Shown here in pieces: positions 2,764 to 63,900 of a DNA stretch of 64,000 nucleotides. Positions within the stretch are counted from its first letter, which is position 1, and each line of letters opens with the position of its first letter. The position numbers and the translations under genes were made by a program. Source of the stretch: Amoebophrya sp. A120 (Eukaryota > Protista > Dinoflagellata); the NCBI GenBank assembly GCA_905178155.1, contig CAJINV010000012.1, forward strand, positions 553,271 through 617,270, given 5' to 3'. The notes under the pieces are model-generated. The model was not told the origin of the DNA and did no database searches. It worked only from the letters and a program-made list of their open reading frames with translations.

Positions 2764-2922
2764 TATGCATTGCAAAAGTATCTTCGCACAACTAGTATGA
2801 ATCGCAGGACAAATTTTCTCAAGAAGAGAAGTCGACTTTGTCATGCAAATTCAGGTAAGAAACTAGATTTGTCATGCAGGATTGCGATTAGCACGAGTTG
2901 CACGATACTTTTGCATTCGATA
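2764..2922. mobile_element. TIR introner, family B
   Basis: Ends TATGCATTGCAAAAGTATC ... GATACTTTTGCATTCGATA; degenerate flanks GCCTT/GTGTT. Removal plus 5 bp joins short minus ORFs 2841-3062 and 2590-2844 (EKNT|REQQ). Confidence 0.75.
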
Positions 2923-3013
2923 GTGTTCTTCTCACCCCCAGCCGGTTCTTGATCTGGGGGCAAAACTTGTCGTAAAACATCGTCATGGCCTGGCGATTGT
3001 TGATTTGGGACAG

Positions 3014-3168
3014 TATCCACTGCAAAATAAGTATCGCACTCGTAGTAATTGCTATCGTGCATGACAAATATCCCTTGTTAGGCGAAATAGCATTACAAAT
3101 TGCATTTTTTTTTCTTGAGAAAATTTGTGATGCAATTTATACCACGTACGATACTTTTGCAATGCATA
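3014..3168. mobile_element. TIR introner, family B (opposite orientation to the 2764 copy)
   Basis: Ends TATCCACTGCAAAATAAGTATCGCAC ... GTACGATACTTTTGCAATGCATA; flanks GACAG/GACCG. Host frame not resolved. Confidence 0.8.
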
Positions 3169-5641: not shown

Positions 5642-6748
5642 TTATTTTCCTGCTCCTTTCATCACCTTTTTCATAACCGCCATGGAAGATGACTTCTTCA
5701 TGCCAGCGCCGCGGGTAGATGTAGAAGTCGCGCTACTGGTACTAGTCTTGGTACTATTCTTTCCAGCTTTCGCTGCTTTACTAGAAGACTTCTTCTTGCT
5801 GGATTTCAGGACGTTTACAGCTTTTTTACTCTTTCCACCGCTTGCAGTTGCAATATGTTTTCCAGTATTCATCTTCGCCTTTGCCGAGCCCATCTTCATC
5901 GGTGTGATCTTCTCGCCACCGGCAGCGGCACTACTCGAGCTAGAACTGCTACTGGTGTTCTTGCCACGACCCTTGGTTGCGCCATTCTTCGCCTTCACAC
6001 CCTTGCTCGTTTTCTTGCTAGATGAAATCGCCAGGAGGCTGGTAGTTTTCTTCATTGCAGGAGTTGCTGAGGTTCTTTTCATCGCGACTCTTTTCATCAC
6101 CGACAATTTTTTAAGAGCGGGCGCTTTATTGTTTTTGGCCGGACGACCGGGCTTCCTCTTCTCTTTGATAATCTTCATCGGCAGTGATGCGGCTTTGTTT
6201 CCAGGGTTCGGGTCGGTACTTCCAGAAGCTGCTGCTGCTACTGGCCCGGTACTAGTACTGGAAGAAGAGGACGAGGAGGATGATGCTGACGCCGCGCCAG
6301 AAGATGCTAGTCCTGTCGTTGTTCCACCCACGGTCTTTTTCGGCCGGCCCCGTGGCTTCTTTGCAGCTACTGGATTTTTACTTCCGGGCCCCTCGTGGTC
6401 CGCAGCTGAAATCCTTTTCAGAGAAGTATCTTTGTTTTCATCCTGCTGGCCGAGCACCAAGTTGATCTTCTTTGTCTCGCTGCCTGCGTTCTTTTTATTT
6501 CCTACTTGAGAAATAACTTTCGGTAGTGGCAAGCTCGGCTGTTGTTCTCCTTCAGAAGCTCTTTTCATCTTGAACGCCATGTGGGGAAATGCACGAAGAG
6601 CTTCAGCACGTGCACGTGCTGGAACTACAAGCTCAGCATGACTCGCTTGCTCGTCGCCCGCGACGTAGTTCTCCGGCTCCTTCATCTTCGTGCGGCCGAT
6701 CAAGATCTTGCCGCTTTTCGTTTCCTGTTTTTTGTTAAAAGGCAACAT
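5642..6748 (-). CDS. Lys/Ser-rich basic protein with AT-hook-like motifs (possibly the last exon of the upstream LRR gene)
   Basis: 368-aa ORF with KKPRGRPKK and KRKPGRPAK and a histone-H1-like Lys/Ala/Ser-rich tail. Confidence 0.65.
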   Translation of the reverse strand: MLPFNKKQETKSGKILIGRTKMKEPENYVAGDEQASHAELVVPARARAEALRAFPHMAFKMKRASEGEQQPSLPLPKVISQVGNKKNAGSETKKINLVLGQQDENKDTSLKRISAADHEGPGSKNPVAAKKPRGRPKKTVGGTTTGLASSGAASASSSSSSSSSTSTGPVAAAASGSTDPNPGNKAASLPMKIIKEKRKPGRPAKNNKAPALKKLSVMKRVAMKRTSATPAMKKTTSLLAISSSKKTSKGVKAKNGATKGRGKNTSSSSSSSSAAAGGEKITPMKMGSAKAKMNTGKHIATASGGKSKKAVNVLKSSKKKSSSKAAKAGKNSTKTSTSSATSTSTRGAGMKKSSSMAVMKKVMKGAGK

Positions 6749-6884
6749 GTACTACGGAACAACTGCAAGCTGTATCTGAAGACTTTTGACAACACGTCGC
6801 AAGATACGACTGATGAACTGGCGCCATCTGCGGAAGTACGGTATGTAATTAGCACCATGAAGATCGCAATGCAGCGATTTTGTT

Positions 6885-9800
6885 CTATACCAGCAGCTTT
6901 TTCTCCTCGGTTGAGAAACCCTGTATCGCTTTTTCGAAGCCATCCTCCCGGGCTTTTCTGTCGTTGTCCTCCTCGCTGCCGGTCTTGTCCTCGTCCCCTG
7001 CAGGTTGCAAGAAGGTCTTGTTCTGCAAGTCAACATTCTTTGCTTGGTAGTACTTGATCAGATCCTTGACGTCAAATTTCTTGGGCGTCTCATTGCTGGA
7101 TGAAAGAAGGGTGGGGTTGTTACTGTTTTGATCCAGGAACTTTTTCTGGTCGACACGGAACCCTTCAACATCCTCGGAGGTCGTTGTTGGAGCACAAATG
7201 GCCACCTTAGCGGCCTTACTGGTGCTCGCCGCGGCAGTGGTACTTCTAGATGATCCAATTGCCTGTTGTAGAAGTGGTTCCGGTCCCGTCTGAAGAGGAG
7301 GTTTTACTTGCTTGCCCGCAATACAAGCAGAGGACGAAGAACTTGTAGATGAAGAAACCTGTAATGCGCAATCTGAAACTACATGAAACATTGTCGCACG
7401 CATAGACGGCCAAAGCCAACAATTTTGAAGAAGCCAAATCTGACATAACAAGGCTAGCGATACAATACACTCGCATGCACATGTAGATCAAATGCATCAC
7501 CAAAAAATGCAAATGGATAAAACAAGGTCCAGGATCACGATGAGTTTCCTAAAACACTGGATAAATAAATACCAGTGCTGTATTTGCTGCGCGACCGCCA
7601 ACAACATTAGACGAGGAAGCCGAACTACTCGACGTCGCGCCCTGCAAACTCGTTTTTTGTACGTTGCACGACTTGGTAGCTCTTTTCGCATCGAGGCTGT
7701 CCGCAGCTCCTGCGGATGTAGAAGGTACCTGTTTTTTTGTTCGTGTCGATACCAATCATACGAGCCGCGAACTCGAGTTCATAATATTGAAGTGCCCATG
7801 ATCTGCCCAATTCTCGCACGAAGCACCAAATGGAAACATAGATTCCACAGTGGAAACAATTCTTCTTTCATCTTGTCCACAGGGAGTAATAAATAAGTAC
7901 CGTTGTTTTTGCTCTTCCCGCGCCTTTGACCTTTTTCAGGAGTTGATTCTCCTTGCCGCCAGCACTATCCTCTTCCGCTGCTGGTGCGTGCTTTTCATCC
8001 TTTTCCTTGTCCACCGCCGCCCGACCCCTCTTCGACGAACTCGCTGCGCTGCTCTCCGCGTTTGCACTGGCACTCTTCGCTGCCATCGCTCCTACCATCG
8101 AGCCTTCCAGGTCCGTGCTCGACTTTGTCTTTGACAAGGAGAAGAGTATACCGGACCCATGCGCATCTAGCAGTTTCTCGCCGTCCAAAACTTTCAACGA
8201 GGGGCAGGCCTGTTTTTCGTATATTTGGTGTTTGTTTTTCATTTTTGTTTTTCACTTCGAGAGGGCATCGAAAGCAACGCGCTTTTTTAAATCTAGTCAT
8301 GCACGGCAAATCTCACTGCGGACAGCAATTATACTGCAAGAATTTTCTCCCGCATCTCGGTTGGCTCCGGGCGGAGACGCAAGGGCATCAAGGGATAGTC
8401 GTTTCCCGTTATGCATCGCAATTGCGTCTGAGTCTGTACTAAAACAAAGGTATATTCTTAGTCTACATATTCCATGGAAAGTGGCTGGATCATCGCATAA
8501 GAACCAACAAACGCGCAGCTTCGTTTGTCATGCAAAGACGAAGCTTTTTGTTTTTCTTCTGTGCGCGGTGTGCACAGAAGAAGGCGCGACGCAATATGCT
8601 TGTCATGCTTAGCAGCTGCATTTGCTGGAGTGTTTTAAAAATCTTCCACAACCTCGTACGATCACAAGTTACAATTCCAGAACTACACTCAGACAGATTT
8701 TCACTTCCGTACCCTTGTAGAAGGTGTACCATTGCAGCGATCCCCTCGCCTCCAGTACTTCCAGCTGTGGCACCGCTGCGAGTCCCTCTTCGGCTTCGCG
8801 CAGCCCCAGATGTTCACTTCCCTGCACGCTCAAAGTTTTCAAATTCCGGAAGCAGTCGCTCGCGAGAAAATCCAGGTTTTTGATACCAGTGTTCTGCAAG
8901 GTCAGTACCTGTAGAATTTCTAGGTTCGGATTCCGTTTCATTGTTCATTTGACTGATATCTTCATGCTTATTCTCCGTGCAACATCAAGGTTACTTTTGA
9001 AGAGGTCGACCTTCAGTATGATGATGATCCTGCCATGATTCATTATTGCATTTGCGCGGCGCGACAATCTTTTTACATGAACCTTCACGGGCCAACAGGA
9101 ATTGACGAAAGAAGGTGAACCTCAAGAGACGAAGTCCCGCCCGGAAGCCCACAACTTCCGTCCACTGTTTCAAGTCCATCCAAAGCTTCACAATCCACGA
9201 TTCCCAGCTCCCGCAAGTTTGGGCACATCGAGAAGAGATCCTGGAGACCAGAGGATGGAATTGTGTATCAAATGCAAATGTCGTGTCTGGGTCTGGAAGA
9301 TTGGAAAACTTGTCATGCACATTTTGCACGACCCACGATGTAGTCCGTGATGTATGCGGTAGCATCACAGATTTTGTGAAGGCTTCCCGATGCCTATCCC
9401 GCATGAGAAATGCCCTAGGAAAAACAGGACTTCTCTTGCTGGTCATGCAATGCAGATGTTTTTAGAATCCAAGAACAGCATCACAAGTTGGATCCTTCCA
9501 GACCCAGACATATTTGCAGTTGATATTGTGTCGTTTGGAAAACACCAGTCGACGTCGTTAAAAACCAGTTTCGTGGTGGATTGCAGAACCGCATTGATTT
9601 GCTCTTCTCGCGAAAGCTGCTTTTTTGACTCCTGTTTGTCATCTCGGGTCGTGGATGATGATGATGATGATGATGAAGAGGTGGTGCTAGACTTGGAATT
9701 GGAGCTACTGCCTGTAGAAGTACCAGGCGAGGTGTTATTCGTGCTAGACGCGTTCGCGTTCTCCTCCTCCGCTGCTGCTCTCCTCTGGGGTAGTATGCAC

Positions 9801-13992: not shown

Positions 13993-16900
13993 TCAATGCT
14001 GAAACTCGTCTTCGTGTATCGGCGGCTGACAATCTTCCACCTTCGTCGGGTGATAGCCCGCAAACTCCGGTAGGTTCTTGCCCCACTCCGGTGCTTGGGA
14101 CAAGCCGCCCTGCATTTGGCGGTACCACTCTGGGGCGTCATTGTCGTAGTAGAGACCTGAGAATGAGATTGTCAGTATTTGCATTGCAATTATAGTAGAT
14201 ACAAAGGCATGACAACTGTAATCCAGAAAGCGCACAGTTCTACGCATGACACATTCCTTAAAACGCAACACAGAGTTTAGAAGCGACATCATGTTGAAGC
14301 TGCTCAAAAAAACAACTTCTGTACAGCCGCTGGGCATATCTACATTCCCCTCGCACGCAAACCGCTTCGCACTGGTGTACGTCAGCCCCGCGATTTTTCT
14401 TCTTCTGCAGCCGAGGTCGAAGTGCGTTCTCTCGTCTCCGGATAACTGCCGGAAAAACACGGAACAAACGTCCGCACGACACGTGCTGTGCATCGTGTTC
14501 ACCACCGGGTTTTGCCACACACAACGCCCCTGGACGCAGATGTATCCTGGTTTGTCACAGTTCACGTTTTGGCAGGCAATCTGCGCCTCCGTTTGCCCGC
14601 TGCCGCCGATTTTCTCCATCTTCGCGTGGGTGGCGTTTTGGTACTGAAAATGGAACCCGGGCCATTGCTTCTCTTGTTTCTCCACGTCATCGGTTTCTTT
14701 TTGTTTTTCATCGGTGGATTTCATGGGGATCGATCCTACCGGCTCCTCCTCCACCCCCTTGATGTTCCCGTCGGTTAAATACTTCTCGGTTTGCTTCTCC
14801 GTTAACTTCCTGATTTGCGGCGGTCCGGAGAAATTTTCGTACACGCCGACCCAGCCGTTTTCGGTCAACATGTAGATCTGCTTCCGGCGGTTGATCATTT
14901 TCATTGCATTCGTGATTTGCGGAAGAATTGGTGCGGTATTGACGGACGAGGAGAGGGTGGTCGACGTTGTTGGGGCTATTCTAGAAGTGGTGGATGATGA
15001 GCTTGTAGCAGCTCTGCCTTCTTCCAGCAGTGTGACTGGTTCTTCCTCCTCTGCTCGACCACCGGGGCCTGCTGCTGCCGCCATTTCCCCGGGTGGTCTA
15101 CTCCCAAGAGAGCCATCTCTTTCTCCTCTTGAACTCGCTTTCCGGAACATTTTCCCGAACAGTTTCGGCTCGGCTTTCGGGACATCGTTCCCTGCCTCAT
15201 CCACGACCGCGGTCACGACTTTTTATCAACTGCAAAAATGTCTGGGTCTGGAAGACTTTGACACCTTTCATGCACGTTTTGCATGAGCCATGATGTCTGT
15301 GATGCATACCCTAGCAATACAGAATTTTTGAGGGCTTCTTGATGTCTATTCCGCATGACAAATGCCTTCTCAGCGTAGCAAAAATTGCATTCTGGTTGCT
15401 ACTCATGCAATACAGATTTTTTTAGAATCCAAATACAGCATCACAAGTTGCATTCTTCCAGACCCAGACATTTTTGCAGTTCATACTTTCACGTCCTGCG
15501 CGACAAAAATCTCCCCCGGCTCCAAGCTTCTTTTCGTTGGTAGTTGCGCGATGAAGACTTTCAAGCCACAAATTGCCAGCGGTGCGGACTTCAACTCGGC
15601 GGAGCCCTCGTCGGTATTCCCTTGTTTCTTGATTTCGATTTCTCCGATTTCCCGCATAATAGAAATGTCCGTTCCATTCCCATCTCCTTCGAGTAAAGTT
15701 TTGATTCTATCTGGTTTCTGCTCGTAGAGTTCCTTGTCGAAGAAAATTCTCGCCGTATCTAAACCTTTCGGGAGCATCGGGTCATTCACCAGTCGTATTC
15801 TCGTTACAAACTTCTTCCCGCTCGTCAAGCTGATTTTCAAAGACTGCTCGTGCCGGAAACCAGTGCGGGAACAGATGGTTTTCAAAAATTCGTCCCCCGG
15901 CTGCTCTAACGGATTTTTAGTTGGAATCGCTGCTGCAGCGGACGATGAAAATTGGGCCAGCTTCGCCCGTTCCTTCGCAACTATCAAATCGCTCTGCAAC
16001 TGCGTGATGTTCGTGATTTTTGGCTCCTCCCCCTCCTCCTCCAGCAGATTCCCCGGTTTCATGTCCCCAACGAAGCTGGTTTGTTTCAGCTTCAACTCCT
16101 TCTTATGCTCCGCAAAAGCATCGCTCTCGTACCAATTGCATTACAGCATGACAAATCGGGTCTGTTACCTGAACCAGCATTACAAATGGCATTTTTCCTT
16201 CTGCAAAAATTTGTCATGCAATTTTTACGAGTGCGATAGTCTTGCAATCCATACTTTTTCGGCAGTTGCAAATCCCCCTCCGCCGTTTCCTTCCCTAGCG
16301 GCTTGCCCTTCTTTGGCTCGAGGTACGGAATGCCGGTGGTTTGGTCGTCGACTGGGGTCGAGTATGCATCGCAAAAGCACTCGTAGCAATCGCAATCATG
16401 CATTACAATTCTAGTTGTCAAGGCAAATTGCATATACAAATTCAATTTGTAATGACCAATGAGAAGCCAATTTGTATTGCAATTTCTACTAGTACGTGTA
16501 CGATACCCTTGCAATCCATATCCAGTAGCGTTTAATTAACGCCGGGACGGGGGAAGTTTTTTTCGGAAAAATCTGGTAGTAATTCGCTTGGCCGAGGATG
16601 GTCGGAAGGAATTCCGTTTTCGAAGCTAATTCCCTTTCGTAAATTGTTTCGACAAAATTCCCGGCTTTCTCGATCAGCGACACGCGGATGTTGCGCTGCT
16701 GTTTGATTCTGTTGGTTTTTGATGCTAGGGTTTGTTGTTCGGATTTTTCAGTTGCAGTTCTTCGGCTCTGTTCCGTGAGACCGGTTTTCACTACTTGGAA
16801 GCCGAGCTGCTCGCTTGTTTCGGGACCGTCCGGGGTGGGCGCGGTAGAAATTTTCGCATCGGAACCTGCGCCTGCTGCTACAGCTTGCGTCGATTGTTCA

Positions 16901-18980
16901 CCAGCATCACCATCCCCGAATCCAAACAGCGCTGCAATCGCCGCTGCATCTCCTTCAAATCCGGCTGCCGCGTATCACAAGAAAAAGTGTTCACGTCAAC
17001 GGTTTTCACAGATTGCAGTCATGCATCACAAATGTGGCCCAATATGCATGCTATGCATGACAAATTTCATTGGCGCGTTTAGTGATGCGCTGCTGTATTA
17101 CAAATTCCATTAAGGTTAACACTTTTTCCTCTGATAACGCGTCCCCTGGTTCAAAGCTCCCCACTGGCGGAACATACAAGCCGTAGTGCGACCTGGGTTT
17201 ACTCGACCGGTCAATCCACGCGAAAACGCCGGACTCGGGATGAAGCACCCGGATCCGCACGCAACTCTTGTCGCGCTTAACGCCCGGGGGTGGTGCTGGC
17301 GTTTTAGTGTCGGTTGTTGCTTGGTCCGCGTCTGTTGTGGCTTTTGCATCTTCCGACTTTGTATTCATTGCAAAAGTATCGCACTCGTATAAATGCATTA
17401 CAAATTTCCTCAGCATGAGAAATGAAATTTGTAATGCTGATTTGCTTTAACAAACAGATTTGTAATGCTCGACTGCAATACGAGTACGATACATTCGCAC
17501 AGGATACTTTGACGTTTTCGAATACGGGTAGTGGTTCACGAACAAGTCAAACACGCTGGTGAGAAAGGGGCTCGGGGTATCCCCTGAAAAGTAACCACCC
17601 CCATCCAGTTTGTCATGCAAAACATGTAGCAAGTTCTGTGTTTGTCATGCAAAAAGTGGATGGGGATGGTTAATGAATTTTCAGGAAATACGGGGGGCGG
17701 AGGTAGTCTTTGGCGAAGGCTGATAGGTGCTGTTCCACCGTCTTCCGCTGCCTGGGGACATTTAAACCGGACTGTCTTTTCACCGCTTCGTCTAAATCTT
17801 CCTTACTCATTCCGTCGAAGTTGGGATGATGCTCAGCACTTGTTGTCGTTCTTGTTTCCATCGCTTTATTATTATTTTCATTCCGCACTTCATCTTCGTG
17901 TTCTGCATGGTCTTCGGCTACGCTCCTGTCGCGGCCTGTACTCGTCTGAGCAGAGTTCACCTTCTCCCGGCGCCCCTGTATTCTCTTCATATCGGCTTGC
18001 CGCTTTTGGTTGTTCTTTTCACTCGCGATCTGACCGAGTGAAGCTGGCCGTGGGGCTGAAAGAGCTTGCTCATTGTTCCTATCACTTTTGGGTCTTTGCT
18101 GGAGTGCAGCGAGCAAACCAATGTTGTTACCCGCAGCCGCTGTTCCAGGCCCGACCTGATCATCGAGACAGTCCACTTGCAGCATGTTCTGCATTGCTTC
18201 GTCAGCGGCGGCTCCGTTCAAAGCCGCTAAGAGTGCCTGCATGTCCTTGTTGAGCAATAAGCGTTCAAAATCCCCGTCTTCTGCGACCGTCTTAATGAAG
18301 TCCGCAAAGGATTTCGGGTTTGGAAATTGCAAGTTGTCTGGCAAAAAGGAAACGCTGGTGTAGTTTCCCGCAAGCGTTTTCACAGCGTGATCATAGACGG
18401 CAAAATTCTTCGGAAGGATAGGCGGAGAGACCTCCCCTGTGACTGGGTCGGTCGTTTGTGTAGTGGAGTTGGTCAAAAACGCGATTACCATGCGGAGAAG
18501 TTCTGGTCCTCCAGAGGGTGGTGGCGCTGGGATTTTCCCTTTGTGCAGCTTTTTCTCCTCTTTTTTACTCCTTACCCGCTGCACGTACGTTTTCTGCCGA
18601 TTGCGGTTCAGCATTTGGAGGTTATTCTGGAGCTGTAGAAACGCAGCGGCAGCTGCTTTCGGTCCACTAGAATTCAAGTCGCTACCGCTGGCGCCATCTT
18701 CACTCCCGGCTGCTTGCTCTTTTTCCTCGGGCGGCATACTTGCGGTTTTATTTCTCGGAGCAGATGCTTTTGGTAGTAATGCGTGTGCTTCCAAGTACTC
18801 GATTGGTACATACCGGGTGTAGAACTCCAGCAAGTGACTCCGCTCCGCCTCCGAACTGGCGGCGAGAATCCCCTTCTGCAGAAAGTAGGACTGCACAAGC
18901 TGGGTCGGCATTTTCAGTGCTGTTGCTCCGTCTTCTGGTGCTAGATTCGTCGCCTTGCTCAAACTTGTACTGCACAACAA
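13993..18980 (-). CDS. Large hypothetical protein with Cys-rich C-terminal part, at least 7 exons; 5' end probably further upstream (~19550, hydrophobic segment)
   Basis: Six ORFs and an extra exon join into one frame after removing six TIR elements plus 5 bp each (RPP|SPF, TSK|SED, GDA|SAG, RYW|TPV, PKK|ELK, DVK|VVT). C-terminal CQNVNCDKPGYICVQGRCV. Confidence 0.8.
15224..15485. mobile_element. TIR introner, family A
   Basis: Ends TATCAACTGCAAAAATGTCTGGGTCTGGAAG ... CTTCCAGACCCAGACATTTTTGCAGTTCATA; flanks CTTTT/CTTTC; frame restored. Confidence 0.92.
16104..16253. mobile_element. TIR introner, family B
   Basis: Ends TATGCTCCGCAAAAGCATCGC ... GCGATAGTCTTGCAATCCATA; flanks CTTCT/CTTTT; frame restored. 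Confidence 0.88.
16363..16520. mobile_element. TIR introner, family B
   Basis: Ends TATGCATCGCAAAAG ... CCCTTGCAATCCATA; flanks TCGAG/TCCAG; frame restored. Confidence 0.85.
16973..17136. mobile_element. TIR introner, family C
   Basis: Ends TATCACAAGAAAAAGTGTT ... AACACTTTTTCCTCTGATA; flanks CCGCG/ACGCG; frame restored. Confidence 0.88.
17362..17506. mobile_element. TIR introner, family B
   Basis: Ends TATTCATTGCAAAAGTATCGCACTCGTAT ... ATACGAGTACGATACATTCGCACAGGATA; perfect CTTTG duplication; frame restored. Confidence 0.9.
17578..17690. mobile_element. TIR introner, family D (113 bp, the smallest)
   Basis: Ends TATCCCCTGAAAAGTAACCACCCCCATCCA ... TGGATGGGGATGGTTAATGAATTTTCAGGAAATA; perfect CGGGG duplication; frame restored. 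Confidence 0.88.
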
Positions 18981-26400: not shown

Positions 26401-27223
26401 GTCAAAATCTCCTTTCGGGTTAGAAACTGCTCCTCCGGGCTGCGAGACGAAAAAGGCACAAAGTCCGGGTCCTGCCGTGAAAGCCGGGGGTGGCGATCCA
26501 GCTTATTTCCCACACGCCGCTTGGAAGTGATATGAACAGCCACCAGACGTCGCATGAGCAGCTCCTGTTGTAGCTCTTGAGTCGTACGTTGGTCAACATC
26601 TACTGTGGCCGCGTCACCGCTGGTAAGAAATTCCAAAAGATCTCGCTCGGTACCGCACACATTCTCCCTTGCAAACCGGATACCGTTATCAACAGCCCAG
26701 CCTGCCTGAGCGTCTATTTTAATTTCTTGCGACCTCGTCGTGCGCACGGCTGCTTGACGCTGCTGCTGTACTTCTGCATCACGATAACTACGCAATAGAA
26801 CGGCAATTTCGGGCTCAGACTTTACAGCTCCTGCAGACCACGGGCAGCTGGCAGCGAGTGCTATGGAACTGTCAGGATTGAAATTAACAAAGTTGAAATA
26901 ATTTGTGATGCATAAAATCTATACCAGTGAGTTGGACCCACAGTTTCCAATCGGCGCATGACAAATTTTCCTGGCCTCTGAAGCAAGTCTGTCATGCTGT
27001 TTAGGGCAAGACTGCTGCTCCCTGTCATGCTAGTCAGCAGCCCAATTCTTGACCCTTACCAGCACTAGAATCTGCCTCCCTTGCGCCTTCAGCAATAGAG
27101 TCAGTCTTTGTGTCGCATTTTATGCATGGCAAATCATCTCAACTTTGTCGATTTCAACTCTGACACATCCATAAGTGCTGCGACTACGCTAAGCAGCGGC
27201 ACCGCAGACTGAGAATAAACCAT
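23353..27223 (-). CDS. Putative secreted protein, 3 exons (27223-27174, 26856-24632, 24311-23353); paralog of 29066-31687
   Basis: Removing two TIR elements gives one frame starting with signal-peptide-like MVYSQSAVPLLSVVAALAASCPWSAGA and joining YLSG|DRNYNG into ORF 23353-24180. Confidence 0.8.
24317..24631. mobile_element. TIR introner, family A (degenerate)
   Basis: Ends TATGCATTGGAAATATGTTCTTTGGGTCTGGA ... TCCAGACCCAGACATATTTGCATTGCATA; flanks CCCTT/CCCCG; frame restored. Confidence 0.85.
26862..27173. mobile_element. TIR introner, family E (~57-bp TIRs)
   Basis: TATGGAACTGTCAGGATTGAAATTAACAAAGTTGAAATAATTTGTGATGCATAAAAT with an imperfect inverted copy at the right end; perfect AGTGC duplication; frame restored inside the signal peptide. 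Confidence 0.9.
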
Positions 27224-46507: not shown

Positions 46508-46759
46508 TATCAAATGTAAAAGTGTCTGGGTCTGGAAGAGTCATGCTGTTTTTGCATGACACATAAGGCCTGGCATGGAAGCTCTAGCATCACAGGTCTC
46601 GAGAAGCTTCCGCAATGCCGAATCCGCATTACAAATCCCCCATTTTGGTGACAGAAAGTGGGCAGCTTTTGCTACCTATGCATGAGAGATTTTTCTGTGT
46701 TCTGAAATGCGCATCACAAGTTTGTATTCTTCCAGACCCAGACATTTTTGCATTTGATA
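46508..46759. mobile_element. TIR introner, family A; host gene unresolved
   Basis: Ends TATCAAATGTAAAAGTGTCTGGGTCTGGAAGA ... TCTTCCAGACCCAGACATTTTTGCATTTGATA; perfect ACTCG duplication. Confidence 0.92.
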
Positions 46760-46821: not shown

Positions 46822-47141
46822 TATCAAAAAGAAAAATCCCCCCTCCCCATATCGAAAACGTATCCGTCTGAAAATTTGTGATGCGCATTTGTGACCTCAA
46901 ATCCTGCCTGTCTTGCAAGAGGGCAAGTCCAGAAAGCGTTCCGCATTTTTCAGGCGGTTTGTGATGCTGTTTGGCTCAGAGCATACACGTTTGTCATGCT
47001 AGGCGCCTACGTCAAACCTCTCGGCTGAGGCTTGCCACATGCGTGCACTCCTCTACTGCAAGACAAATCTGATTTGTGTATGGAAATCCAGCATCAGAAA
47101 CTTCGTTTCGATATGGGGAGGGGGCATTTTTCCTCATGATA
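46822..47141. mobile_element. TIR introner, family G; host gene unresolved
   Basis: Ends TATCAAAAAGAAAAATCCCCCTCCCCATATCGAAA ... TTTCGATATGGGGAGGGGGCATTTTTCCTCATGATA; perfect CGCTA duplication. Confidence 0.9.
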
Positions 47142-47851: not shown

Positions 47852-49564
47852 CTACGCAAAAACCACTCCAAGCTCCTTACACCACTTCTTCATCATTTCC
47901 TCTGAAGCCATCCGCCCACCGCACACCTCGACTACTACATCCCCGCCTTCTTGCAAGATGTCACTGAACGCCGTGATGTCGTGTATTTTCAATTTGCACT
48001 CGTCTGTGCTGTCAGTACTACTGGAACAGCGGATGATGTCTAAAGTCGTTCTTTCACGTCCTTCCTCATCTGTCTTCTTCAAACCAGCCAAGTCCTCCTC
48101 TTCCGTGTCGATCAGCGCTAACGCCGCTCCGCAGGCAGGCTCGACTAGTGGAATCGGACAAAGTTTCTTGCTTCTTGTTTCTCCACCTTCTTCTTCCATC
48201 ACAACCTGTGGCACTCTTTTCCGAAACAGCATCGCCGCCTTGACTGCCGCGTGATCGGTGACACGAAAAGAGTACACGTTGGACGAGTGATCTTTATCAC
48301 CAGCCACTTTCCGGTAGAGTTTTTCGCAATTCAAACTACCTAAAGACTTCGCAACCGAGGTGATTGCCTTGAGCGTCACCGGTTTTTTCTCCAAACAGGA
48401 CTGATAAAAGCAGTCCGCGCCGACCGTCTCGCCGATGAAAAGCTTTACACCTTTTTGTTTCTTGTGTTTCTCCAACCCGTGCAAAATCCCGGTCGCTAAG
48501 CCGCCCCCTCCGCACGCCGTGATGATCGCTTTCAAATTTTCTCCTTTTCCCGGGAGTTGCTCCAAGATTTCGTCGACTACGGAACTGTGGCCCTCGTACA
48601 GGTTGTCGCCCTCAAAGGGGTGGATGTACTTGAGCTTTTGCATATTTACTTGCTGGACGCGAATCGTGGTGCCACCAGCCCGCGTTTCATGCGCAGAAGA
48701 TTCCGTTTTGACGTTTTCAGATTCCCTTACTAACCGTAACGCCTCCTCATTCGCCTCGTTCCAGACGTTGCCGAATATTCTGATTTCCACGTCCGGATTA
48801 TGCATTGCAAAAGTATCGCACTACGTGCAAATAGCATGACAAATTGCCTAAAAATGAAAAATGCAATTTGTCATTCGGATTTAACTTCAGAATGTGATTT
48901 TTATTGCATGTTGCCTACGATGACTACGAGTACGATGGTTTTGCGCCGCATACGGGTTCACCTCGAGCAGTTTCGGCCTCGCGATGTCGATCGGCGTGGT
49001 CTTCGGTAGAATGATCGTGCAGCCCAAATTGTACTGGTAACACGCGTAGGCGCAGGCGAGCCCCGCGTTGCCGCCGGACGAACAGACGCAACCGGTGCAA
49101 CTTTCCTCATACTTCGCCTTCTGCACGGTCAGCCCGATCCCGCGGATCTTGAAAGACCCGGAAGGCTGTAGTGCGTCGAGCTTGTAGTAGATTTGCAAAA
49201 ATGCGGGTGGTGGGCTGGTGGCTTCGTTGTGGCGGCTGGAGGTGTCGTCGTGTCTCTTCAGAAAAATCTTGTGACCCAGCACAAGCGGGGTTTTCTTGTG
49301 GCAGCTGGACGACGGAAGTAGAGTTGCATCATGAGGACGCGTTCCCTTGATGTCCTCGCTGGTAGAAGAGGTAACCTTCTTCTTCTTTGTCAGTTCCTCG
49401 GTTGAAGCATCGATAGCCACCTGAGAGTCCACTAGTTCTGTAGCTTTTGCTTTGCCTTTGCTCGGACTCCGGCTGCGCTTCAGGGAAGGGCTTTGCCCAA
49501 CGACATCGGTGCTGGAAGCGGCGCCGTGGGAAACAGGCAAGGATGGAGAGGTCGGAGGAGACAT
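47852..49564 (-). CDS. SDS: L-serine/threonine dehydratase, PLP fold type II, SDS/CHA1-like (exons 49564-48953, 48793-47852)
   Basis: KLDALQPSGSFKIRGIG (PLP lysine), SSGGNAGLA, YIHPF, CGGGGL, EPACGAALA and VCGG. Halves join as EVNP|DVEIRIFG. Confidence 0.92.
48799..48952. mobile_element. TIR introner, family B, in the dehydratase gene
   Basis: Ends TATGCATTGCAAAAGTATCGCACT ... AGTACGATGGTTTTGCGCCGCATA; flanks CGGAT/CGGGT; frame restored. Confidence 0.92.
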
Positions 49565-52386: not shown

Positions 52387-52428
52387 ATACAATGATGAAC
52401 ATCAAAATTTCACAGACCTCCATCCCAC

Positions 52429-55400
52429 CTAAAACTGCAACTCCAACGCTTGCACCTCCGCCGTTTTAGTGATCAGCCTTTTCACGGTACTGTTGAAGTA
52501 CTCCACGTCTGGACTATCGTGCTTCGTTGGCGCCCCGTCGAGGTTAAACATGTAGTAGAAAAATCCGTCCAAATCGTGCACGCCCGGCAACGCCTTGATC
52601 ACATCCTTCCCACTAGCTTTGTTGAAGAAGTTGACGAACAAGATTAATTGCTGCGGTTGTTCATCTTGTTCCTGATCGTAGTCTGCGGAGTTGGTTGTAG
52701 AAGCGTCAACATTTTTGCCAGACCCCGAAGCGGTGGACTTCAAAATCGGATTCAATTGTCCCCGGTTTGCGAGTTTCTTCGCCTTTGCAAGCTTCTTCGC
52801 TTTCTCCTCTTCTTCTTTCTCGGTGGTGCTGTTTGTGTTTGTCGTGTTGGTCGAAGACGCTGATGCATTCGTGTCGTTGATGACGTACGTTTCGGACGTT
52901 GTATTGTTCGTTGCAGCGACTACATGGGGACTGGACGAGTTGAGCGAGCGCGAAGCTGTTGTATCTTCAGAAAAATTTGTTATCCCGTTTTCAACAGCAT
53001 CTAACCCTTCCCCCATCTCAAACTCTTCATCCGGCCTCAACGGTCTCTCCGGCGCCACCCACTCCTCGTGATTCAAAAACAAAGCGGTGTCATTGATCGC
53101 TTCGAGTTGCGCCATTCTGTTGGTTTCAATAGAGTTGCCAACATTATTTTCATTCGTAGAACTACTGCTCTGCGTCTGCCCCCCACCTGCTCCGCCATTT
53201 GTCACTATCCCGACATCCTGCACGAAGAATTGCACGTCGATGAAGGGAGAGAGTTCGAAAATTTTCTTCTTCGCCTTGATGATCGGGCGTTTCCAGGCAG
53301 TCACGAACCGGTCCAGAGCGACTTTGACCGCGTGTTGGAAGATGAAGGCGTCCTTGTTCTGTCTTTTCAATTTCTGTATCAAAAGTAAAAATGTCTGGGT
53401 CTGGAAGAATGCAACTTGTCATGCTGTTTTTGGATTCTAAAAAAATTAGTGTTGCATGACCAGCAAGAAAGGTCCAGTCTGTGCTACGCGGAGAGGGCAT
53501 TTCTCATGCGGAAGGCGCATCAGGAAGCCCTCTAAAAGTCTGTGATGCTAGGTCATGCATTACAGGCATCAGGGTTCATGAGAAATATGCATGACAAGTC
53601 TGCATTCACTTCCAGACCCAGACATTTTTACAATCCATATTCTGCTTCAAGTCGTGGGGGTGGATGAAACCCGGATGGGTCAATGGGTCGTATCCATACG
53701 TGCCGTAAAAATCCCCGCCGCCCCCACCATTTCGCTCAAATAGATACGCGAACCGGAAAAGGAGGAGTTCTAGATAGTCGAAGTTTTCCCCGTCCAGGAT
53801 GATTTGGAACAGGTCCTCCACAGATTTCGCGTTCAAAACGTCCTGGACCATACTGTACGGGTTGTTCAAATATCCTCTGCAAAAGTATCGCACTATCCTA
53901 GTGATCGCAGTCACGCATTCCTTTCTCATGGTAAACCCGCATGACAAACTTCATTTCTCATGCTGAGGGAATTATTTGTTATGCGATTTCTACTAGTACG
54001 ATACTTTTCCTTTTGCGATGCATATGAAAACCTGCACAAACTTCTTCAGGTCCTGCCTTAACCCGAACTTCTTCCGCTGAAAAACCAGGTCCTTTGTGAG
54101 AGACTCGCAGCCAAATTTGTTGCTGCACCAGTCGATCAGGTTGTACAGTGTCTGGATCCCGCGTCGGTATTTGAAGAAGGAAACGCTGGATTTGGTTTGG
54201 TGGATAGCATATTGATGAAAAGACGAACGCTGGCCACCTCGTCTTGAAGAAGACGAACTACTTGAGGAACTCGCTATACCATCATGCGTATGCTCGATCT
54301 CGCTCCGGTCTTTCGACACCGTCGGCTGTTTCCTCTGCGATTTGAAAATTTTCAGTTCCCGGAAAAACTCCTTGTCTTGCTTCGTTGTAGCCAGAGCTGT
54401 TTTGCCAGGCATTGTCGAGAGAAGTCTCTCATGCTCCGCGTCTACGTCGTCTTTATCCGTGTCTTTTTCATCCATGAGCTGCTCCTCGGTTTTGGTGATG
54501 TCCAGCTCTATCGCCATGGCGTCGTGCTCAGGCTCTCCACTTGTTGTACCGTCACCACTGTTTGATGGTGAAAACTCCACGAGAATTTCCTCGGTCAACC
54601 ACCGATCAAGTATGGTTGTGTTCGTCGTTCTTGGGGGGATATGAACCTCGGAAATCGTCGGCTGGAGGTGGTGATGTTGGAGATGTGCGACTCCTGTAGT
54701 TCCTGTACCCACCTTTATTGCAGCAGCAGGAGTTGTGGATGACGAAGGCTCTGTGTTGCTTTTGATTTTGTCTTGCTGCGATTTCAAGTCAGTTGTTGAT
54801 GTGTCATCTGCAGTTGATCTGGAAAAAGTTTGACCTTGTTCCTTGATGTCCTCTGCAGCATCATCCTCAAAGTGCCACTCATGCACCCTCCAACCGAACA
54901 GGTCCCGGAAAAACAACACCACCGCAGTGGTAGAGGAGGGCGCGAGGTTGAAAATTTTCCGGAGCGAGGTGATCAAAACTTTTTCAAAGCCGTGCTGCAA
55001 CCACGACGGATTACGTCTGGCTTTGTGTCTCGATGATCTCGTGGTCCTGTCAGAGGTGGTTGTTGTTCCGCGACTTTTATATGGCGCTGCATCAAAGTAC
55101 ACCGTGCTCTGCAAACCCTGCAGCCCGGCGCGCGCTCCACCGGCACCTGGCACGGTGCTTTTTCTTTCAGAACTACTGTCTGTGGTAGGCAATGTACTTC
55201 TCAGAGGGGGCGTCGATGGGGCAGCTTCGGCATGCGCCGCCTGTTCATCATCATCTCCCCTGGTGCTGGTGTAATAGTTTTCTGCACGATTTTGATTTTC
55301 AACTCTCGCCCGACCAACACACGAAGCCTTCACCCCTCGGCTCCTACTGCCAACCTCCGGAAGATCTACTGAGTTCCCCACCGAATTCGAGATCTTCACG

Positions 55401-58979: not shown

Positions 58980-60480
58980 ACGACTTGGCGGCTGTCCCAA
59001 TTGACATGAACACGAGCAAAATGCGAGTCACACACCTGCCATAAAAGGGCCTGCGCGAAACGTGGAGACGTCCCAAGGGTGCGGGCACTGCCACGTCGTC
59101 TGCGTTCTCCAAATTCGCAGCCAGGCTGCAGCGCGCCCTTCGGACGACCTGTTGCAATTTAGCAAACAATTTGAATTTCTGGCCCGAGCGCCACACTCTG
59201 CAATGTGCCCGCTGGCCCGAGGATGGAGCTGCGCCGGCCTCTATGGCCTGTTCATTCTTGAAATTCACGGGGCGACACAGGGGACACACTCTCCCTGACC
59301 ATCGGAGCGCGCCCGAGGGCACGCGGGAAAGCGCCTGCCTCCCAAGATGTCAACGCGCGGCGCCACAGACAGTCAGGGCGACGGACGGAAACCCGGCGGG
59401 CTAGGCGCCACAGCCCCGAAGGAAAATAAGGGGGGCTGGTAGGGAAATTAACGGGCGCCCGGTGGGTGCGGCCGCGCGCCGGCCTTGTGACGCCATGCCG
59501 CCCCGCCACGAGCGAGGGCGGGGTGGGTCCGCCCCCCGGCCCGGCGTGGGGCGATGGGTCGGAGCGGGGGATGGATGGTCGGAAGGCCGAGGCGCGGCCC
59601 CAAAGACCCCCCGCCGGGCCGCTCCGCTTTCATTCCGGGGGGCCTCACCGAACCCCGCCGGCCTTGCTACTGCCGGACAGCTTGCGCACCGCCCCCCCTT
59701 GCGGGCTTCTCGATCATGATGCCGCTGGCCCGCGGCCTGGCCCCGCCCCTGCGATGTTTTTGATTCTTGCCAAAATCGCACGCGCGGTCGCGTTGCCTGT
59801 TGCGGCCAAAGCCAGGCGCCGCCCCCCTCACTTCCTCGCGGCGGTCGCGCGGCCGGAAGGGCCACGGGATGGGCGGGGGGGGCATGGCCAGGCGCGCGGG
59901 CGCACGGACGCAGGCAGCCCATAAGCAGGCGGCCCAGCGAGTCAAGTAGCCAGGTGGATAAGTCAAAGGATCGCCGGCCCACCTTGCAAAGCCGACTGTC
60001 CTCCATACGCCACATGTAACCATCGAACTTTTCCTCCATGCGCCACATGCAACCCGGCCGGCACCAAAACCCGGGCCCTAACCTCCTCACGGTGTCCCGG
60101 GGTGCCGGGCCGCGGCTTTTAATGCCCCACCCCGCGCGCCCGGGCCCGCCGCGCGGCGAAGTTAGACACAACGCCGCTGCGCCGCCGGCGTTCCATGGTT
60201 CCGTCGCTGCCTGGGGCCTGGGCGTTCTGGGGCGCGCGGCGCCTCTGTCTGGCCACGCACTCGATGCGGCAGAGGCCACAAAAGGAAAGGCGCCACGCGC
60301 AGGGGGGTCCCTCCTGCGCAGCGTAGAGGCGGGCGCCCCTGGCGCCAAGCCCCCGCGCCTTCATCTGCTTCACCCTAGCCCGGGCCCATTTTGTCGCCCG
60401 GGCTGTCCTGGGCTGGCAACTCACACACGGAAGCCGGGGCCGTCTGCATGCCGGACAGAAGCCGCGTCCCGGTTGCACTT
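58980..60480. other. Anomalous GC-rich block (similar composition also at ~58300-58470)
   Basis: G/C runs, no credible ORF. Confidence 0.6.
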
Positions 60481-60956
60481 ACCAAGTAGCAGCGCCTTCG
60501 AGAAAAAAGCCTCTGACCTAAAGCAGACAGATGCGAACCGGATGAACACACTTCTCTGATGAAGGAACATTTCCCAGATGCTCAGAGGCCAAATGCATTT
60601 GCCTTCCGCGGTTGAACGCTGTCGCTTTCGTCGTTTCAGCTACTGATCTCGATTGTACAAGAACTCGCACCTATCTGCATTTGAAAACTGCCAATCTTGC
60701 ATTTGATCCATTCTACTAATATTCAACTCTTATTTATTCCTGTTGTTGCTGTGAGTGACCAACATCATACTGACTGTTGCTTTCGAAAAAAGTTCATTGT
60801 GGTTTCATTCAAGAAAGCGCTGATGTGGTCAAGCTTAAAAGTTTATTTAGGACGACAAGACTGTAACTGATTAAAAATTCCTGTAGTTCTCACTCTTGCA
60901 GTGACGATTTTGAAATTCTACATAAGTACTTCAACTTACGACAACTTCGACCGCCG

Positions 60957-63900
60957 TCAAGTTCCCCGCACCACGGGGGTGCAGTTGGAGCTGGTCGCCG
61001 CTTCCGAGGACGAGTACCGCAGCGAGTCCTCGGGCATTTTCTCCCCGTCTATTTCCTTCTGGGCCATCCAGACCGCCGTCTGCCACTCCACCGACTCGCC
61101 GATATTGACCTTAGATAGGAGTTTGATTTGAGGTTGATATGATAGCACAATTTCTTCAAGAAGATGTCCACGCATGTCAAAAAGCCTGTGCGACATCAAA
61201 CGAAAGAAAGACAAGTTTAGAAAGTTGCAATGAAGAACTTCATGAAGACCATCTAATACCACTTTCGCTCCGAAATCACGCGACGCGGGCGGCACGATGA
61301 AAGCAGGACCGTTTCCGCTTGCGCCCCCCGTCCCTCCACCGCCAACGACATTCGCTATCTCTTGGCTGAGCGAATTCGCGTTGGAGCTATTTGTATTGCT
61401 GTTTTGGTGCCCCAGCTGCCGTTCCTGCTCTACGCCACCGGCCAAGGCTCCAAGTGTCGCGTTGTGACTACGAATTCTCGCTCTTGGATTTACACCGTGC
61501 TGTCGGGGGAAATTTGGCGGCTGCGGTTTGATCACTCGGTGTTGGTGTGACGATGCGACAATCTGCTCCCCAGTCTTGCGACAGGTGGTGCGGTGGTGCT
61601 GGTGTTGTGAGGACTTGTGATTGTTGTTGTTCGAGGCTGCACTCGCTGCAGTTCCCACACTATCGGCGTTGAAAGTCAATTTCTGATTCGCGATTTTCAT
61701 GATCTGCTTGTGGTTCGTCGTGGTACGGGCGCTGGAGTAGTTGTGCTGGGAATTATGGCTCTTTGCTGCAGCAGCTTTGTCACGCGACAAGCCGTTGTCT
61801 TTGTCCCGCTCTCCCCGAGCAGTCAGCATCTGCCCCGCTTGTTTTGCTGTGGACGAGGTGGAGTTGTTGCTCATACCATTCTCGCGACTGCTCCAGCCGT
61901 TCGCCTCCTTGATGTGGTTCCCCGAGCAGTTTACGGACCTAGGATTGCCTCCTCCACCGCTATTTGGGCCTGTGCTTGTCCCTCCATTTGTCGTCCCGTT
62001 GTTGTAAATCTCATTCGTACCGGCCAAATTTTGCTGGAACTTGGGGAAATTTACCGCGGCCCGATTAGGATTTCGTGCCGTCCGCGTGGCGCTGCCCGAT
62101 GGCCGGGTGGAAATCGCGAAACTGTGGTTGGACTGGTGAAAGTTTTCCCCGCTGGCGGCCTTTTGACGAGCAGAGGGAATAGCACCAGTCATCGAGTTCT
62201 TGCTGGATGGTGCAGCAGAAGTCGTGAAAGCGATGGTAGACGCCACGACAGGTGCTGGGCGACGCTCTTCCTGCTCGCGGTCTGCACTATGTTCGTGTAT
62301 TCCACCACCAGTCGCGGCAGAAGAAGTTGCAGCACTTTCATCCTTCAGCAAACTCGCCGCAGCCGTGGCGAGAAAAGAGTCGTTTCTGGCTGCCGGCGCG
62401 GTTTTTGTGAACTTCTGTGAGGAAAACAAGTTCTGCTTGTTGAAAATCGCAGGCATCTTGTCCACCACGCCGGGTTCGTCACGGTGATTTGCGGCTGCAT
62501 CAACGCAACTTTCTCCGTCAACAGTAGCCACAAGTTCTTGCGCCCGATCTTGAACCAAGTCGGAGGTCAGGAGAGGAAGAGTCGCTCTTATTCCTCCTGG
62601 AAGATCACCCTGAAGATGAACATGTGCCTGCCTCTCGTTTTGCACCACAGCGCTCGTGGTCGTCCCGCTCGTTTTGCAATCCACCACATTCACACCACTG
62701 CCGTGTTCGATCTCAGGCAACAAGATACCGGAACACACTGGCTCTGCGCCAGTGGGTATCAAATGTAAAAATGTCTGGGTCTGGAAGATTTCGAGATTTG
62801 TCATGCCTATTTGCCATGATCGATGATGTCTGTGATGCATGCCGTAGCATCACAGATTTTTGGAGCGCTTTGTGATACCTCTACCGCATGAGAAATGCCT
62901 TCTCCGCGTAGCACAAACTGGAGTCCTCTTGCTGTTCATGCAATACAAATTTTTTCAGAATCCACAGACAGCATCACAAGTTTACAATGTTCCAGACCCA
63001 GACATTTTTGCATTTGATAGCGGGCTGGCTGTGATCTTCCGCTTGTGAGTATGTTGTTGCGTCTTTTCCTCTATCACCTTGATTTATTTCCGAATCTGTT
63101 TTAGTATTCCCTCCTGGCGGTTGTCCAACAGCAACTCCGTTGCTGGCATTCGAAAACGATTTGTTCAGATTCAGCTTCTATCAAGTGTAAAAATGTCTGG
63201 GTCTGGAAACTTGTGATGCCGGGCGGCGTCTCATGATGAGGCTACAAATGCTGGCTCAGCATGACAAGTTTCTGAGCTCCTAGGTGTTGCCTATTCTGCA
63301 TGACAAACTGCGCTTCTGCATCACAGAAAAGCGCAGCTCTTGGGGAACGTGCATGACAGATTTAAGAGCCATGCCAGACAAGCATGACAAACATGAATTC
63401 TTCCAGACCCAGACATTTTTACAGTTGATAGCTTCGTGTTGGAGCTCGCACGCAAACTCGAGCTGCAACGGTTGAGGAAGCTGCTGAACATCCCTGCTAT
63501 GCGGTTGCTGCTGCGATTCAAAGTCGGCATTGGCGGTTGTTGCTGCTCGGAGGAACTGCCTTCTGCCGATTCTACTTCTTCTTCGCAGCTGCTGTTATCG
63601 GCTCGTTCACAGGCGGCCTGCTTGTTCCCGTTCTCTACCATGAAGTCAGGCGGCGATTCCGGGCTGCTGACAGTCTGGGCATTCATCTCAGGAAAATCCT
63701 GCTGACAGTGCCCCTTGCAGCTCAAATCCGTGTTTTTTTCGTCACAGCTGCTCGACCCGCTTTCTTCGCCTAGTTGGGTCGAACTGGAGCTAGCACCGCT
63801 CATGAACCGCAGGAAAGAAAAAGACGAGCTCATCTTGTGCCGCGGAATCGTCGGGCTCGGGGATCCGGACGTTTGCGGCCGAACTAAAGTGGTGCCCAGA

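What the first reader, a model, noticed from the sequence alone, without database searches (positions are those of the whole stretch)
2764..63430. A unified system of TAT...ATA, 5-bp-duplication TIR elements acting as non-GT-AG introns
Seen: at least 21 elements of 113-320 bp, all bounded by 5'-TAT and ATA-3' with TIRs. Flanks form a 5-bp direct repeat that is perfect in 11, 4/5 in 8 and 3/5 in 2. In 15 hand-checked cases, deleting the element plus 5 bp fuses neighbouring ORFs, including conserved METTL9 and dehydratase sequence. No register of that deletion gives GT...AG on the coding strand. Known: Amoebophrya genomes are reported to hold many non-canonical introns with inverted and direct repeats, with an unresolved splicing mechanism. 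Inference: these are MITE-like DNA-transposon derivatives removed precisely from RNA by a rule tied to element ends rather than spliceosomal dinucleotides.
Basis: partly seen in the sequence, partly recalled or inferred. Interest (0 to 1): 0.93.

Follow-up and report, generated by a model that had tools for sequence, protein, structure and literature searches.

The report
Amoebophrya transposon introns without GT-AG
In the marine parasite Amoebophrya A120, small transposon-like inserts with mirrored ends interrupt many genes and, where transcript data could be read, are missing from the RNA together with one copy of a 5-base duplication; this class was described in 2021, and the cell likely removes them with a relaxed spliceosome guided by the insert ends.

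Summary
All 21 TAT...ATA elements are present (113-320 bp; 5-bp repeat perfect in 11, 4/5 in 8, 3/5 in 2), but they are 19 independent insertions, and two lie outside coding sequence. A window ORF is 100% identical to an Amoebophrya sp. A120 protein. Farhat 2021 already describes A120 introners with TAT-starting inverted repeats, 3-5-nt direct repeats and a MITE-like build. A spliced RNA contig lacks element+5 nt (one joint shown, two by arithmetic) while DNA contigs keep the elements. Not found in the texts I read: (1) the 5-bp rule holds across families (276 of 343 elements in a second assembly); (2) nearly all carry one internal motif (21 of 21; 335 of 343); (3) four imperfect repeats put the cut 1-2 nt before TAT and 3-4 nt after ATA, if one rule holds; (4) an aligner sliding inside the repeat reproduces the published spread of splice motifs. 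No transposase was found and the machinery is untested. The scan noted similar introns in other genomes, none in this one.

The parts
2764..2922 (-). TAT...ATA element, 159 bp, repeat 3/5
   Evidence: frame test marginal; no RNA piece shown
3014..3168 (-). element, 155 bp, repeat 4/5
   Evidence: frame test does not favour +5; no RNA piece shown
8410..8711 (-). likely 22nd element, 302 bp, TAC at the transcript 5' end, repeat 4/5, weak inverted match (7/20), two internal motifs
   Evidence: RNA length arithmetic fits its removal +5, but one other solution also fits
9266..9525 (-). element, 260 bp, repeat 5/5
   Evidence: RNA contig X3 record 10 piece starts at 9525 as predicted
15224..15485 (-). 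element, 262 bp, repeat 4/5; 267 nt missing from RNA
   Evidence: X5 record 17: pieces 14323-15217 and 15485-16098 adjacent in the record
16104..16253 (-). element, 150 bp, repeat 4/5; 155 nt missing from RNA; kept whole in a DNA contig
   Evidence: arithmetic; X1 record 5 spans 15457-16494 without a gap
16363..16520 (-). element, 158 bp, repeat 4/5; 163 nt missing from RNA
   Evidence: arithmetic
16973..17136 (-). element, 164 bp, repeat 4/5
   Evidence: RNA piece ends at 16968 (next piece not shown); frame test 552 codons
17362..17506 (-). element, 145 bp, repeat 5/5
   Evidence: 479 codons
17578..17690 (-). element, 113 bp, repeat 5/5
   Evidence: 457 codons
24317..24631 (-). element, 315 bp, repeat 3/5
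26862..27173 (-). element, 312 bp, repeat 5/5, divergent ends
37686..37922 (-). passive copy of the 42940 element inside a tandem segmental duplication
39214..39450 (-). passive copy of the 42940 element inside a tandem segmental duplication
   Evidence: 37965-39486 is 99.9% identical to 41691-43212
42940..43176 (-). element, 237 bp, repeat 5/5, near the 3' end of a METTL9/DREV-like gene (ORF 43136-45853)
46508..46759 (.). element, 252 bp, repeat 5/5, outside long reading frames; removal from RNA unknown
46822..47141 (.). element, 320 bp, repeat 5/5, outside long reading frames; removal from RNA unknown
48799..48952 (-). element, 154 bp, repeat 4/5, inside a PLP serine/threonine dehydratase-like gene (47855-49564)
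   Evidence: deposited A120 protein P0001 aligns with a 53-codon (159-nt) gap here; homologues run through
53377..53639 (-). element, 263 bp, repeat 5/5, opposite orientation to its relatives 9266, 15224, 62757
   Evidence: (315 codons)
53871..54024 (-). element, 154 bp, repeat 4/5
   Evidence: 391 codons
62757..63019 (-). element, 263 bp, repeat 4/5
   Evidence: 239 codons
63179..63430 (-). element, 252 bp, repeat 5/5; its family is orientation-biased in coding sequence
   Evidence: (187 codons)
14155..14322 (-). ordinary GT-AG intron missing from the same RNA contig (shows the contig is spliced RNA); holds two copies of the internal motif
6724..6889 (-). ordinary GT-AG intron missing from RNA contigs X3 and X5

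Best explanation
These are the known introner elements of Amoebophrya A120: short inserts with TAT...ATA inverted ends and a 5-bp flanking repeat that stay in the DNA and are missing from spliced RNA as element plus 5 nt, likely spread by one DNA transposase or integrase acting in trans and likely cut out by a relaxed spliceosome that takes its register from the element ends. Shown: anatomy, repeat length, loss from RNA at the junctions that could be read, retention in DNA, need for removal (stops), both orientations tolerated in the largest families. Inferred, step 1: a single enzyme makes a 5-bp staggered cut and reads the TAT ends and the shared internal motif GCAT[G/C/T]A[C/G]A, which lies on both strands as a DNA-binding site would. 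Inferred, step 2: in pre-mRNA the inverted ends pair into a long stem that brings the two exons together. Inferred, step 3: the cut falls at a fixed offset, most likely 1 nt before TAT and 4 nt after ATA, so the intron starts N-TAT, which matches positions +2 to +4 of this organism's ordinary donors (GTAT, GTAC), and ends on whatever bases 3-4 of the repeat are; one whole repeat copy is left and the exon is restored without a scar. Identity with the published class is near certain (about 0.97); the confidence below is for the mechanism.
For: Organism: P0001, 100% identical, named Amoebophrya sp. A120 by its source. [quoted passage not shown] RNA: 267, 155 and 163 nt missing, each element+5. 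DNA keeps them. Retention would give a stop inside or just after all 15 coding elements tested. Second assembly: +5 opens at least 120 codons on both sides in 76 of 343 elements against 10 (+3) and 4 (+4); a 972-bp element sits in the RNA polymerase II largest subunit. Register: RNA pieces allow offsets 0-4 (15224), 0-3 (16104), 0-2 (16363) and 1-5 (16973); common range 1-2. Weak hints for offset 1: AG at repeat positions 3-4 in 11 of 62 against 5.0 expected (p=0.016, one of 11 tests); damaged termini lie at the transcript 3' end in 7 of 8 frame-supported cases (p=0.07). Both orientations: 17:21, 6:11, 4:4 in three large families. Nearly all spliceosomal proteins are reported present and U1 snRNA undetected in A120.
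Against: No test of the machinery was possible. The register rests on four junctions of one RNA contig, partly read from piece coordinates; a consistent pattern of this kind would also arise about two times in three if each junction had its own random offset (my calculation), so a fixed rule is not shown, and offset 1 is not separated from offset 2. G at repeat position 5 (which would give GT) is not enriched (24 against 20.4). When strand was taken from the locus only, damaged termini lay 8 at the 5' end and 3 at the 3' end. One family (63179 type) is 14:1 biased in orientation in coding sequence (p=0.001), so ends alone do not explain everything. No transposase was found, and Farhat 2021 report none in A120.
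Confidence: 0.6

Rival explanations
1. Same elements, but removed by a non-spliceosomal, structure-guided cut-and-join pathway as proposed for euglenid nonconventional introns; the hairpin is the signal and N-TAT is no donor mimic.
For: Every element folds into an end-to-end stem; orientation does not matter in the largest families; no dinucleotide is required at the 3' end; U1 snRNA undetected; euglenid precedent.
Against: GT-AG introns and elements are missing from the same RNA contig, and 15% of A120 canonical introns are reported to share the repeat build, which suggests a continuum; weak AG excess at the position that offset 1 makes the acceptor.
Confidence: 0.25
2. The spliceosome removes them, but the cut slides within the 5-bp repeat from site to site, always taking element+5; there is no fixed offset.
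For: [quoted passage not shown]
Against: The published spread is reproduced by an aligner sliding in the repeat: simulated 65% N-T starts and 72% A-N ends against 69% and 68% in the 9,716-copy family fam2, whose start and end counts mirror each other (r=0.90). The published variability is therefore no evidence of real sliding.
Confidence: 0.1
3. The RNA gaps are reverse-transcriptase template switches across a hairpin between direct repeats, or the elements are excised at DNA level in part of the cells.
For: Hairpin plus short direct repeat is the recalled recipe for this cDNA artefact; assembled contigs drop rare variants, X1 may be the source of the assembly, and 370 joints were not shown.
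Against: Retention would truncate all 15 coding cases tested and RNA polymerase II in the second assembly, so removal must happen in the cell; DNA depth is even (28-34 in most unique bins) and a DNA contig spans 16104 whole; Farhat 2021 report tens of thousands of RNA-supported introns against the genome.
Confidence: 0.05

Closest known systems
Introner elements (IEs) of Amoebophrya sp. A120, Farhat et al. 2021, PMC7789003 (abstract, sections 10, 11, 12, 16, supplement passages and part 3 read; figures not seen)
   Same: Same organism; TAT-starting inverted repeats with an A run; direct repeats at the borders (Fig. S19 legend: 5 bp); hairpin; non-canonical borders; MITE comparison; mechanism left open.
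   Different: The paper gives repeats of 3-5 nt varying in length and position, variable splice sites and 1,954 families; here the repeat is uniformly 5 bp, one internal motif is shared across families, and the cut is bounded to 1-2 nt before TAT if fixed. Figures 3 and S19-S25 may show some of this.
A120 introner families of Gozashti et al. 2025, PMC12130899 (passages; all 58 A120 rows of supplementary file 8 read; files 13-14 not searched)
   Same: Most families classed as TIR DNA transposons of similar lengths; family 38 is annotated '5-bp TSD, TA/TA Termini', Ginger-like, with integrase-like homology.
   Different: Automated repeat lengths in the table range from 2 to 11 or are missing; no single rule across families is stated in the rows read. 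I did not assign window elements to their numbered families.
Euglenid nonconventional introns and Fritillaria non-canonical introns (review PMC11282704, section 6 read)
   Same: MITE-like origin, inverted ends, target duplications, non-GT-AG borders.
   Different: Different end motifs (euglenid CAG/CTG; Fritillaria AG-AC, AG-AT); euglenid introns are reported to leave as circles; Fritillaria borders are restricted, these are not.
Introners of Micromonas and Aureococcus (same review and PMC7789003)
   Same: Non-autonomous DNA transposons whose removal takes one repeat copy and restores the exon.
   Different: Those keep canonical GT/GC-AG sites from the element or the target; these usually have neither.

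Membership tests
Amoebophrya A120 introner elements | lies in the A120 genome | tested here: met
   P0001 100% identical, source name A120
Amoebophrya A120 introner elements | inverted repeat starting TAT, seven variable bases, then at least three As | tested here: met
   34 ends tabulated; 686 ends of a second assembly
Amoebophrya A120 introner elements | 3-5-nt direct repeat at the borders | tested here: met
   5/5 in 11, 4/5 in 8, 3/5 in 2
Amoebophrya A120 introner elements | repeated in the genome | tested here: met
   related copies within the window; summed DNA depth up to 196,590 over elements against about 30 outside
Amoebophrya A120 introner elements | RNA-supported intron with non-GT-AG borders | tested here: met
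   3 elements with both sides fixed, 2 with one side; borders; the other 16 not shown in RNA
MITE (non-autonomous TIR DNA transposon) | short, terminal inverted repeats, fixed-length target duplication, multi-copy | tested here: met
   (exact 5-bp repeat in 258 of 413 candidates; at most 8 for lengths 3, 4, 6-9; pairing preferred 5-bp matches)
MITE (non-autonomous TIR DNA transposon) | autonomous partner with the same ends and a transposase | tested here: inconclusive
   none among 3 long candidates in 146 loci; no whole genome held
MITE (non-autonomous TIR DNA transposon) | empty orthologous site in a relative | tested here: inconclusive
   protein homologues run through the 48799 site; no orthologous DNA among the loci
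Ginger DNA transposons | TG-type termini (recalled) and integrase-related transposase | tested here: not met
Canonical U2 introns | GT (or GC)...AG borders | tested here: not met
   none of 21 in any register across the repeat; 3 of 62 sites in the second assembly would be GT-AG at offset 1
Canonical U2 introns | removal by the spliceosome through a lariat | not testable with these tools
   no lariat or inhibitor data
Euglenid nonconventional introns | CAG/CTG end motif and release as full-length circles | tested here: not met
   end motif differs; circles not testable

The most novel reading that the evidence does not exclude
The tens of thousands of A120 introners, split in print into about two thousand families with 'no clear splicing signature', are one transposon system with one splicing rule: 5-bp duplication, TAT...ATA ends, one shared internal binding motif, and a cut fixed 1 nt before TAT and 4 nt after ATA, made by a U1-less spliceosome that measures from the element ends and needs neither G at +1 nor AG at the end.
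Probability: 0.4. Interest if true: 0.78.

Novelty: already known. Interest (0 to 1): 0.42.

Why it matters
How Amoebophrya removes the 60% or more of its introns that break the GT-AG rule has been open since 2021. If the apparent variety of borders is only junction sliding inside a 5-bp duplication, the question shrinks to one testable rule, and elements with an imperfect duplication are natural reporters of the cut site in RNA data that already exist. A spliceosome that sets both ends by position relative to a transposon's hairpin would make any insertion of this element harmless, explaining its spread, and the shared internal motif gives a handle for finding the missing transposase.

Tried and rejected
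No whole genome is held for the window, so no genome-wide scan or transposase search. Raw-read run X9 laid only 5 reads on 2620-20300: no evidence either way. RNA was laid on 2620-20300 only, so the 12 elements beyond 20300, including the two informative ones at 53871 and 62757, have no RNA junction here. Searches for the deposited proteins that would span 53871 and 62757 found nothing. Pfam named only the METTL9/DREV-like and dehydratase pieces among 35 ORFs (one further ORF had two hits below the curated cut-off). The end pattern has no match in viral contigs. Using conserved residues to read the register: of 34 exon pieces beside imperfect repeats only an SNF2 gene and a weak Sec23 hit were recognised, neither separating offset 1 from 2. 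I first took Table S4 of Farhat 2021 (all nine predominant A120 motifs have T second) as support for offset 1 and dropped it, because a sliding aligner gives the same picture. Long 'elements' L058:5001-6031 (adjacent short elements) and L063:2562-8758 (a pair of internal motifs) were rejected as autonomous copies. Mismatch direction within repeats was uninformative. Roy et al. 2023 is not held. A text search for four 10-base forms of the internal motif gave 544 papers; the 15 listed were unrelated.
Full report
1. Observation. A scan for TAT...ATA pairs with inverted ends found 19 of the 21 elements and an end-motif scan added 16104 and 53871. Pairs of this kind number 17 for TAT against 0, 0 and 1 in three shuffles. 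The elements at 37686, 39214 and 42940 share flanks and lie in a tandem duplication of up to 99.9% identity, so there are 19 independent insertions. The long reading frames are on the minus strand. No register across the repeat gives GT...AG on that strand in any of the 21.

2. Organism and prior description. The ORF at 47855-48820 is 100% identical to a protein that its source names Amoebophrya sp. A120. Farhat et al. 2021 (PMC7789003; abstract, sections 10, 11, 12, 16, supplement passages and part 3 read, figures not seen) report that over 60% of A120 introns are non-canonical, define introner elements by inverted repeats and 3-5-nt direct repeats, state that A120 repeats start with TAT followed by seven variable bases and three As, count 29,850 copies in 1,954 families, compare them with MITEs, find no transposase in A120 and no U1 snRNA, and leave the mechanism open. 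The legend of Fig. S19 names 5-bp direct repeats. Gozashti et al. 2025 (PMC12130899; passages and all 58 A120 rows of supplementary file 8) class most families as TIR DNA transposons and annotate family 38 as '5-bp TSD, TA/TA Termini' with integrase-like homology. The finding is therefore a known class in the organism where it was described.

3. Are they removed from RNA? Four runs were laid on 2620-20300, which holds 9 of the 21 elements; the output was cut (370 joints and 16,057 pieces not shown). Contig X5 record 17 joins 15217 to 15485 with adjacent record coordinates, a gap of 267 nt = 262+5. Its next shown piece ends at 16098 and the one after begins at 16521, with 104 record letters between, exactly the exon 16254-16357, so 155 and 163 nt are missing. 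It ends a piece at 16968, and X3 record 10 begins one at 9525, both as predicted. The tool marks X3 and X5 (one sample) as RNA by guess; they lack the GT-AG introns 6724-6889 and 14155-14322, so they are spliced RNA. DNA run X1 covers most unique bins at 28-34 and has a gap-free contig across the whole 16104 element; none of the 15 joints shown is an element+5 skip. X1 may be the source of the assembly and contigs drop rare variants. The 12 elements beyond 20300 have no RNA test here. At 48799 the deposited protein aligns with a 53-codon gap and five homologues run through the site. Retention would give a stop within or just after each of 15 coding elements tested.

4. Does the rule generalise? 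A scan of metagenome contigs with a family end pattern stopped at 150 stretches; the 76 loci listed come from one assembly prefix, and 146 overlapping loci (547,849 bases) were available to scripts. They are selected for one family's end but hold many others. Of 413 candidate pairs, 258 have an exact 5-bp repeat and at most 8 have one of 3, 4 or 6-9 bp (pairing preferred 5-bp matches). Without a terminus filter 242 of 264 candidates are TAT at both ends. Of 343 elements (276 perfect repeats), removal of element+5 opens at least 120 codons on both sides in 76, against 10 for +3 and 4 for +4; taken over all 343, +5 was best in 149, +3 in 132 and +4 in 62, so many elements are not decided by this test. 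A 972-bp element (L065:5001-5972) interrupts the RNA polymerase II largest subunit; the +5 reading continues into a stretch that I recognise from recall as conserved in that protein, +3 and +6 hit stops, +4 is open but unrecognisable.

5. A shared internal motif. GCAT[G/C/T]A[C/G]A occurs in 21 of 21 window elements: 70 hits in 4,562 bp against 14 in the other 59,438 bp (the motif was derived from these elements). It is in 335 of 343 elements of the second assembly, 3.5 per element, an independent check, and lies 187 times in sense and 225 times in antisense in 125 oriented elements. Presence on both strands across families with unlike ends suggests a DNA-binding site of one mobilising enzyme (inference). 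I did not find it in the passages of Farhat 2021 shown for 'motif', 'internal', 'subterminal' (12 of 23 places shown) or in the top 15 of a text search; figures were not seen. No autonomous copy was found among three long candidates.

6. Where is the cut? Imperfect repeats report which copy's base stays in RNA. Counting the offset as bases taken before TAT, the pieces allow 0-4 at 15224, 0-3 at 16104, 0-2 at 16363 and 1-5 at 16973. Cutting exactly at TAT or exactly after ATA is thus excluded as a general rule; if one rule holds it is 1 or 2. Four one-sided bounds cannot prove a fixed rule. Offset 1 makes the intron start N-TAT, like this organism's ordinary donors GTAT and GTAC. Hints for it are weak: AG at repeat positions 3-4 in 11 of 62 against 5.0 expected (p=0.016, uncorrected, 11 tests), no excess of G at position 5; damaged termini at the 3' end in 7 of 8 frame-supported cases but 3 of 11 locus-oriented ones. 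The published motif counts give no register: in fam2 (9,716 copies) 69% of starts are N-T and 68% of ends A-N, mirror images (r=0.90), and a simulated aligner sliding in a 5-bp repeat between TAT and ATA gives 65% and 72%. The reported lack of a splicing signature is what one hidden rule would look like after such alignment.

7. Orientation and structure. All 19 independent elements fold into an end-to-end stem or nearly so (prediction without shuffle control). Three large families occur in both orientations in coding sequence (17:21, 6:11, 4:4), so the main signal is symmetric; the 63179 family is 14:1 (p=0.001) in frame-supported sites and 7:5 elsewhere, which is unexplained.

8. Mechanism and verdict. 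Most likely: spread as non-autonomous DNA transposons with a 5-bp staggered cut, removal from pre-mRNA by a relaxed, U1-less spliceosome positioned by the paired ends at a fixed offset (0.6). Rivals: a non-spliceosomal hairpin-guided route as in euglenids (0.25; review PMC11282704, section 6), spliceosomal removal with a sliding cut (0.1), cDNA artefact or DNA excision (0.05). Other Amoebophrya strains are reported to use GT-AG and to have U1 (PMC12005148, passages). Searches for a paper that settles the register or mechanism listed none; Roy et al. 2023 is not held. Novelty: already known. Interest 0.42, for turning an open question into a direct test, not for the class itself.

Noticed in passing
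window 8410-8711: Likely 22nd element with TAC instead of TAT at the transcript 5' end and a decayed inverted repeat; at offset 1 it would start GTAC like an ordinary donor. RNA contig length fits its removal +5, with one alternative solution.
   Followed up: partly
window 14155-14322: An ordinary GT-AG intron that holds two copies of the introner internal motif; possibly an old introner that has become canonical.
   Followed up: no
window 36428-43212: Three to four tandem copies of a 1.2-1.5-kb unit (86-99.9% identical) that include the 3' end of the METTL9-like gene and its element.
   Followed up: partly
window 43136-45853: 905-codon ORF in which the METTL9/DREV domain is split into three stretches by long low-complexity insertions.
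   Followed up: partly
window 51849-52392: A different 550-bp non-coding repeat, 79% identical to L065:155-699 in the second assembly, without TAT...ATA ends.
   Followed up: no
window 46377-46426 and 47175-47224: A 50-bp direct repeat (98%) flanking the two non-coding elements 46508 and 46822.
   Followed up: no
window 218-2602, 20344-23424, 34507-34836: Further tandem duplications (76-88% identical gene-sized units; one exact 165-bp tandem pair inside a long ORF).
   Followed up: no
L065:5001-5972: 972-bp TAT...ATA element with a perfect 5-bp repeat inside the RNA polymerase II largest-subunit gene; a short family element with extra inner sequence, longest open frame 86 codons.
   Followed up: partly
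63179 family, loci: Orientation bias 14:1 relative to transcription in frame-supported coding insertions, unlike the other large families.
   Followed up: partly
window 53993-57760 and 60957-62849: Very long ORFs (1255 and 630 codons) with no Pfam family and no relative in the protein searches run.
   Followed up: partly
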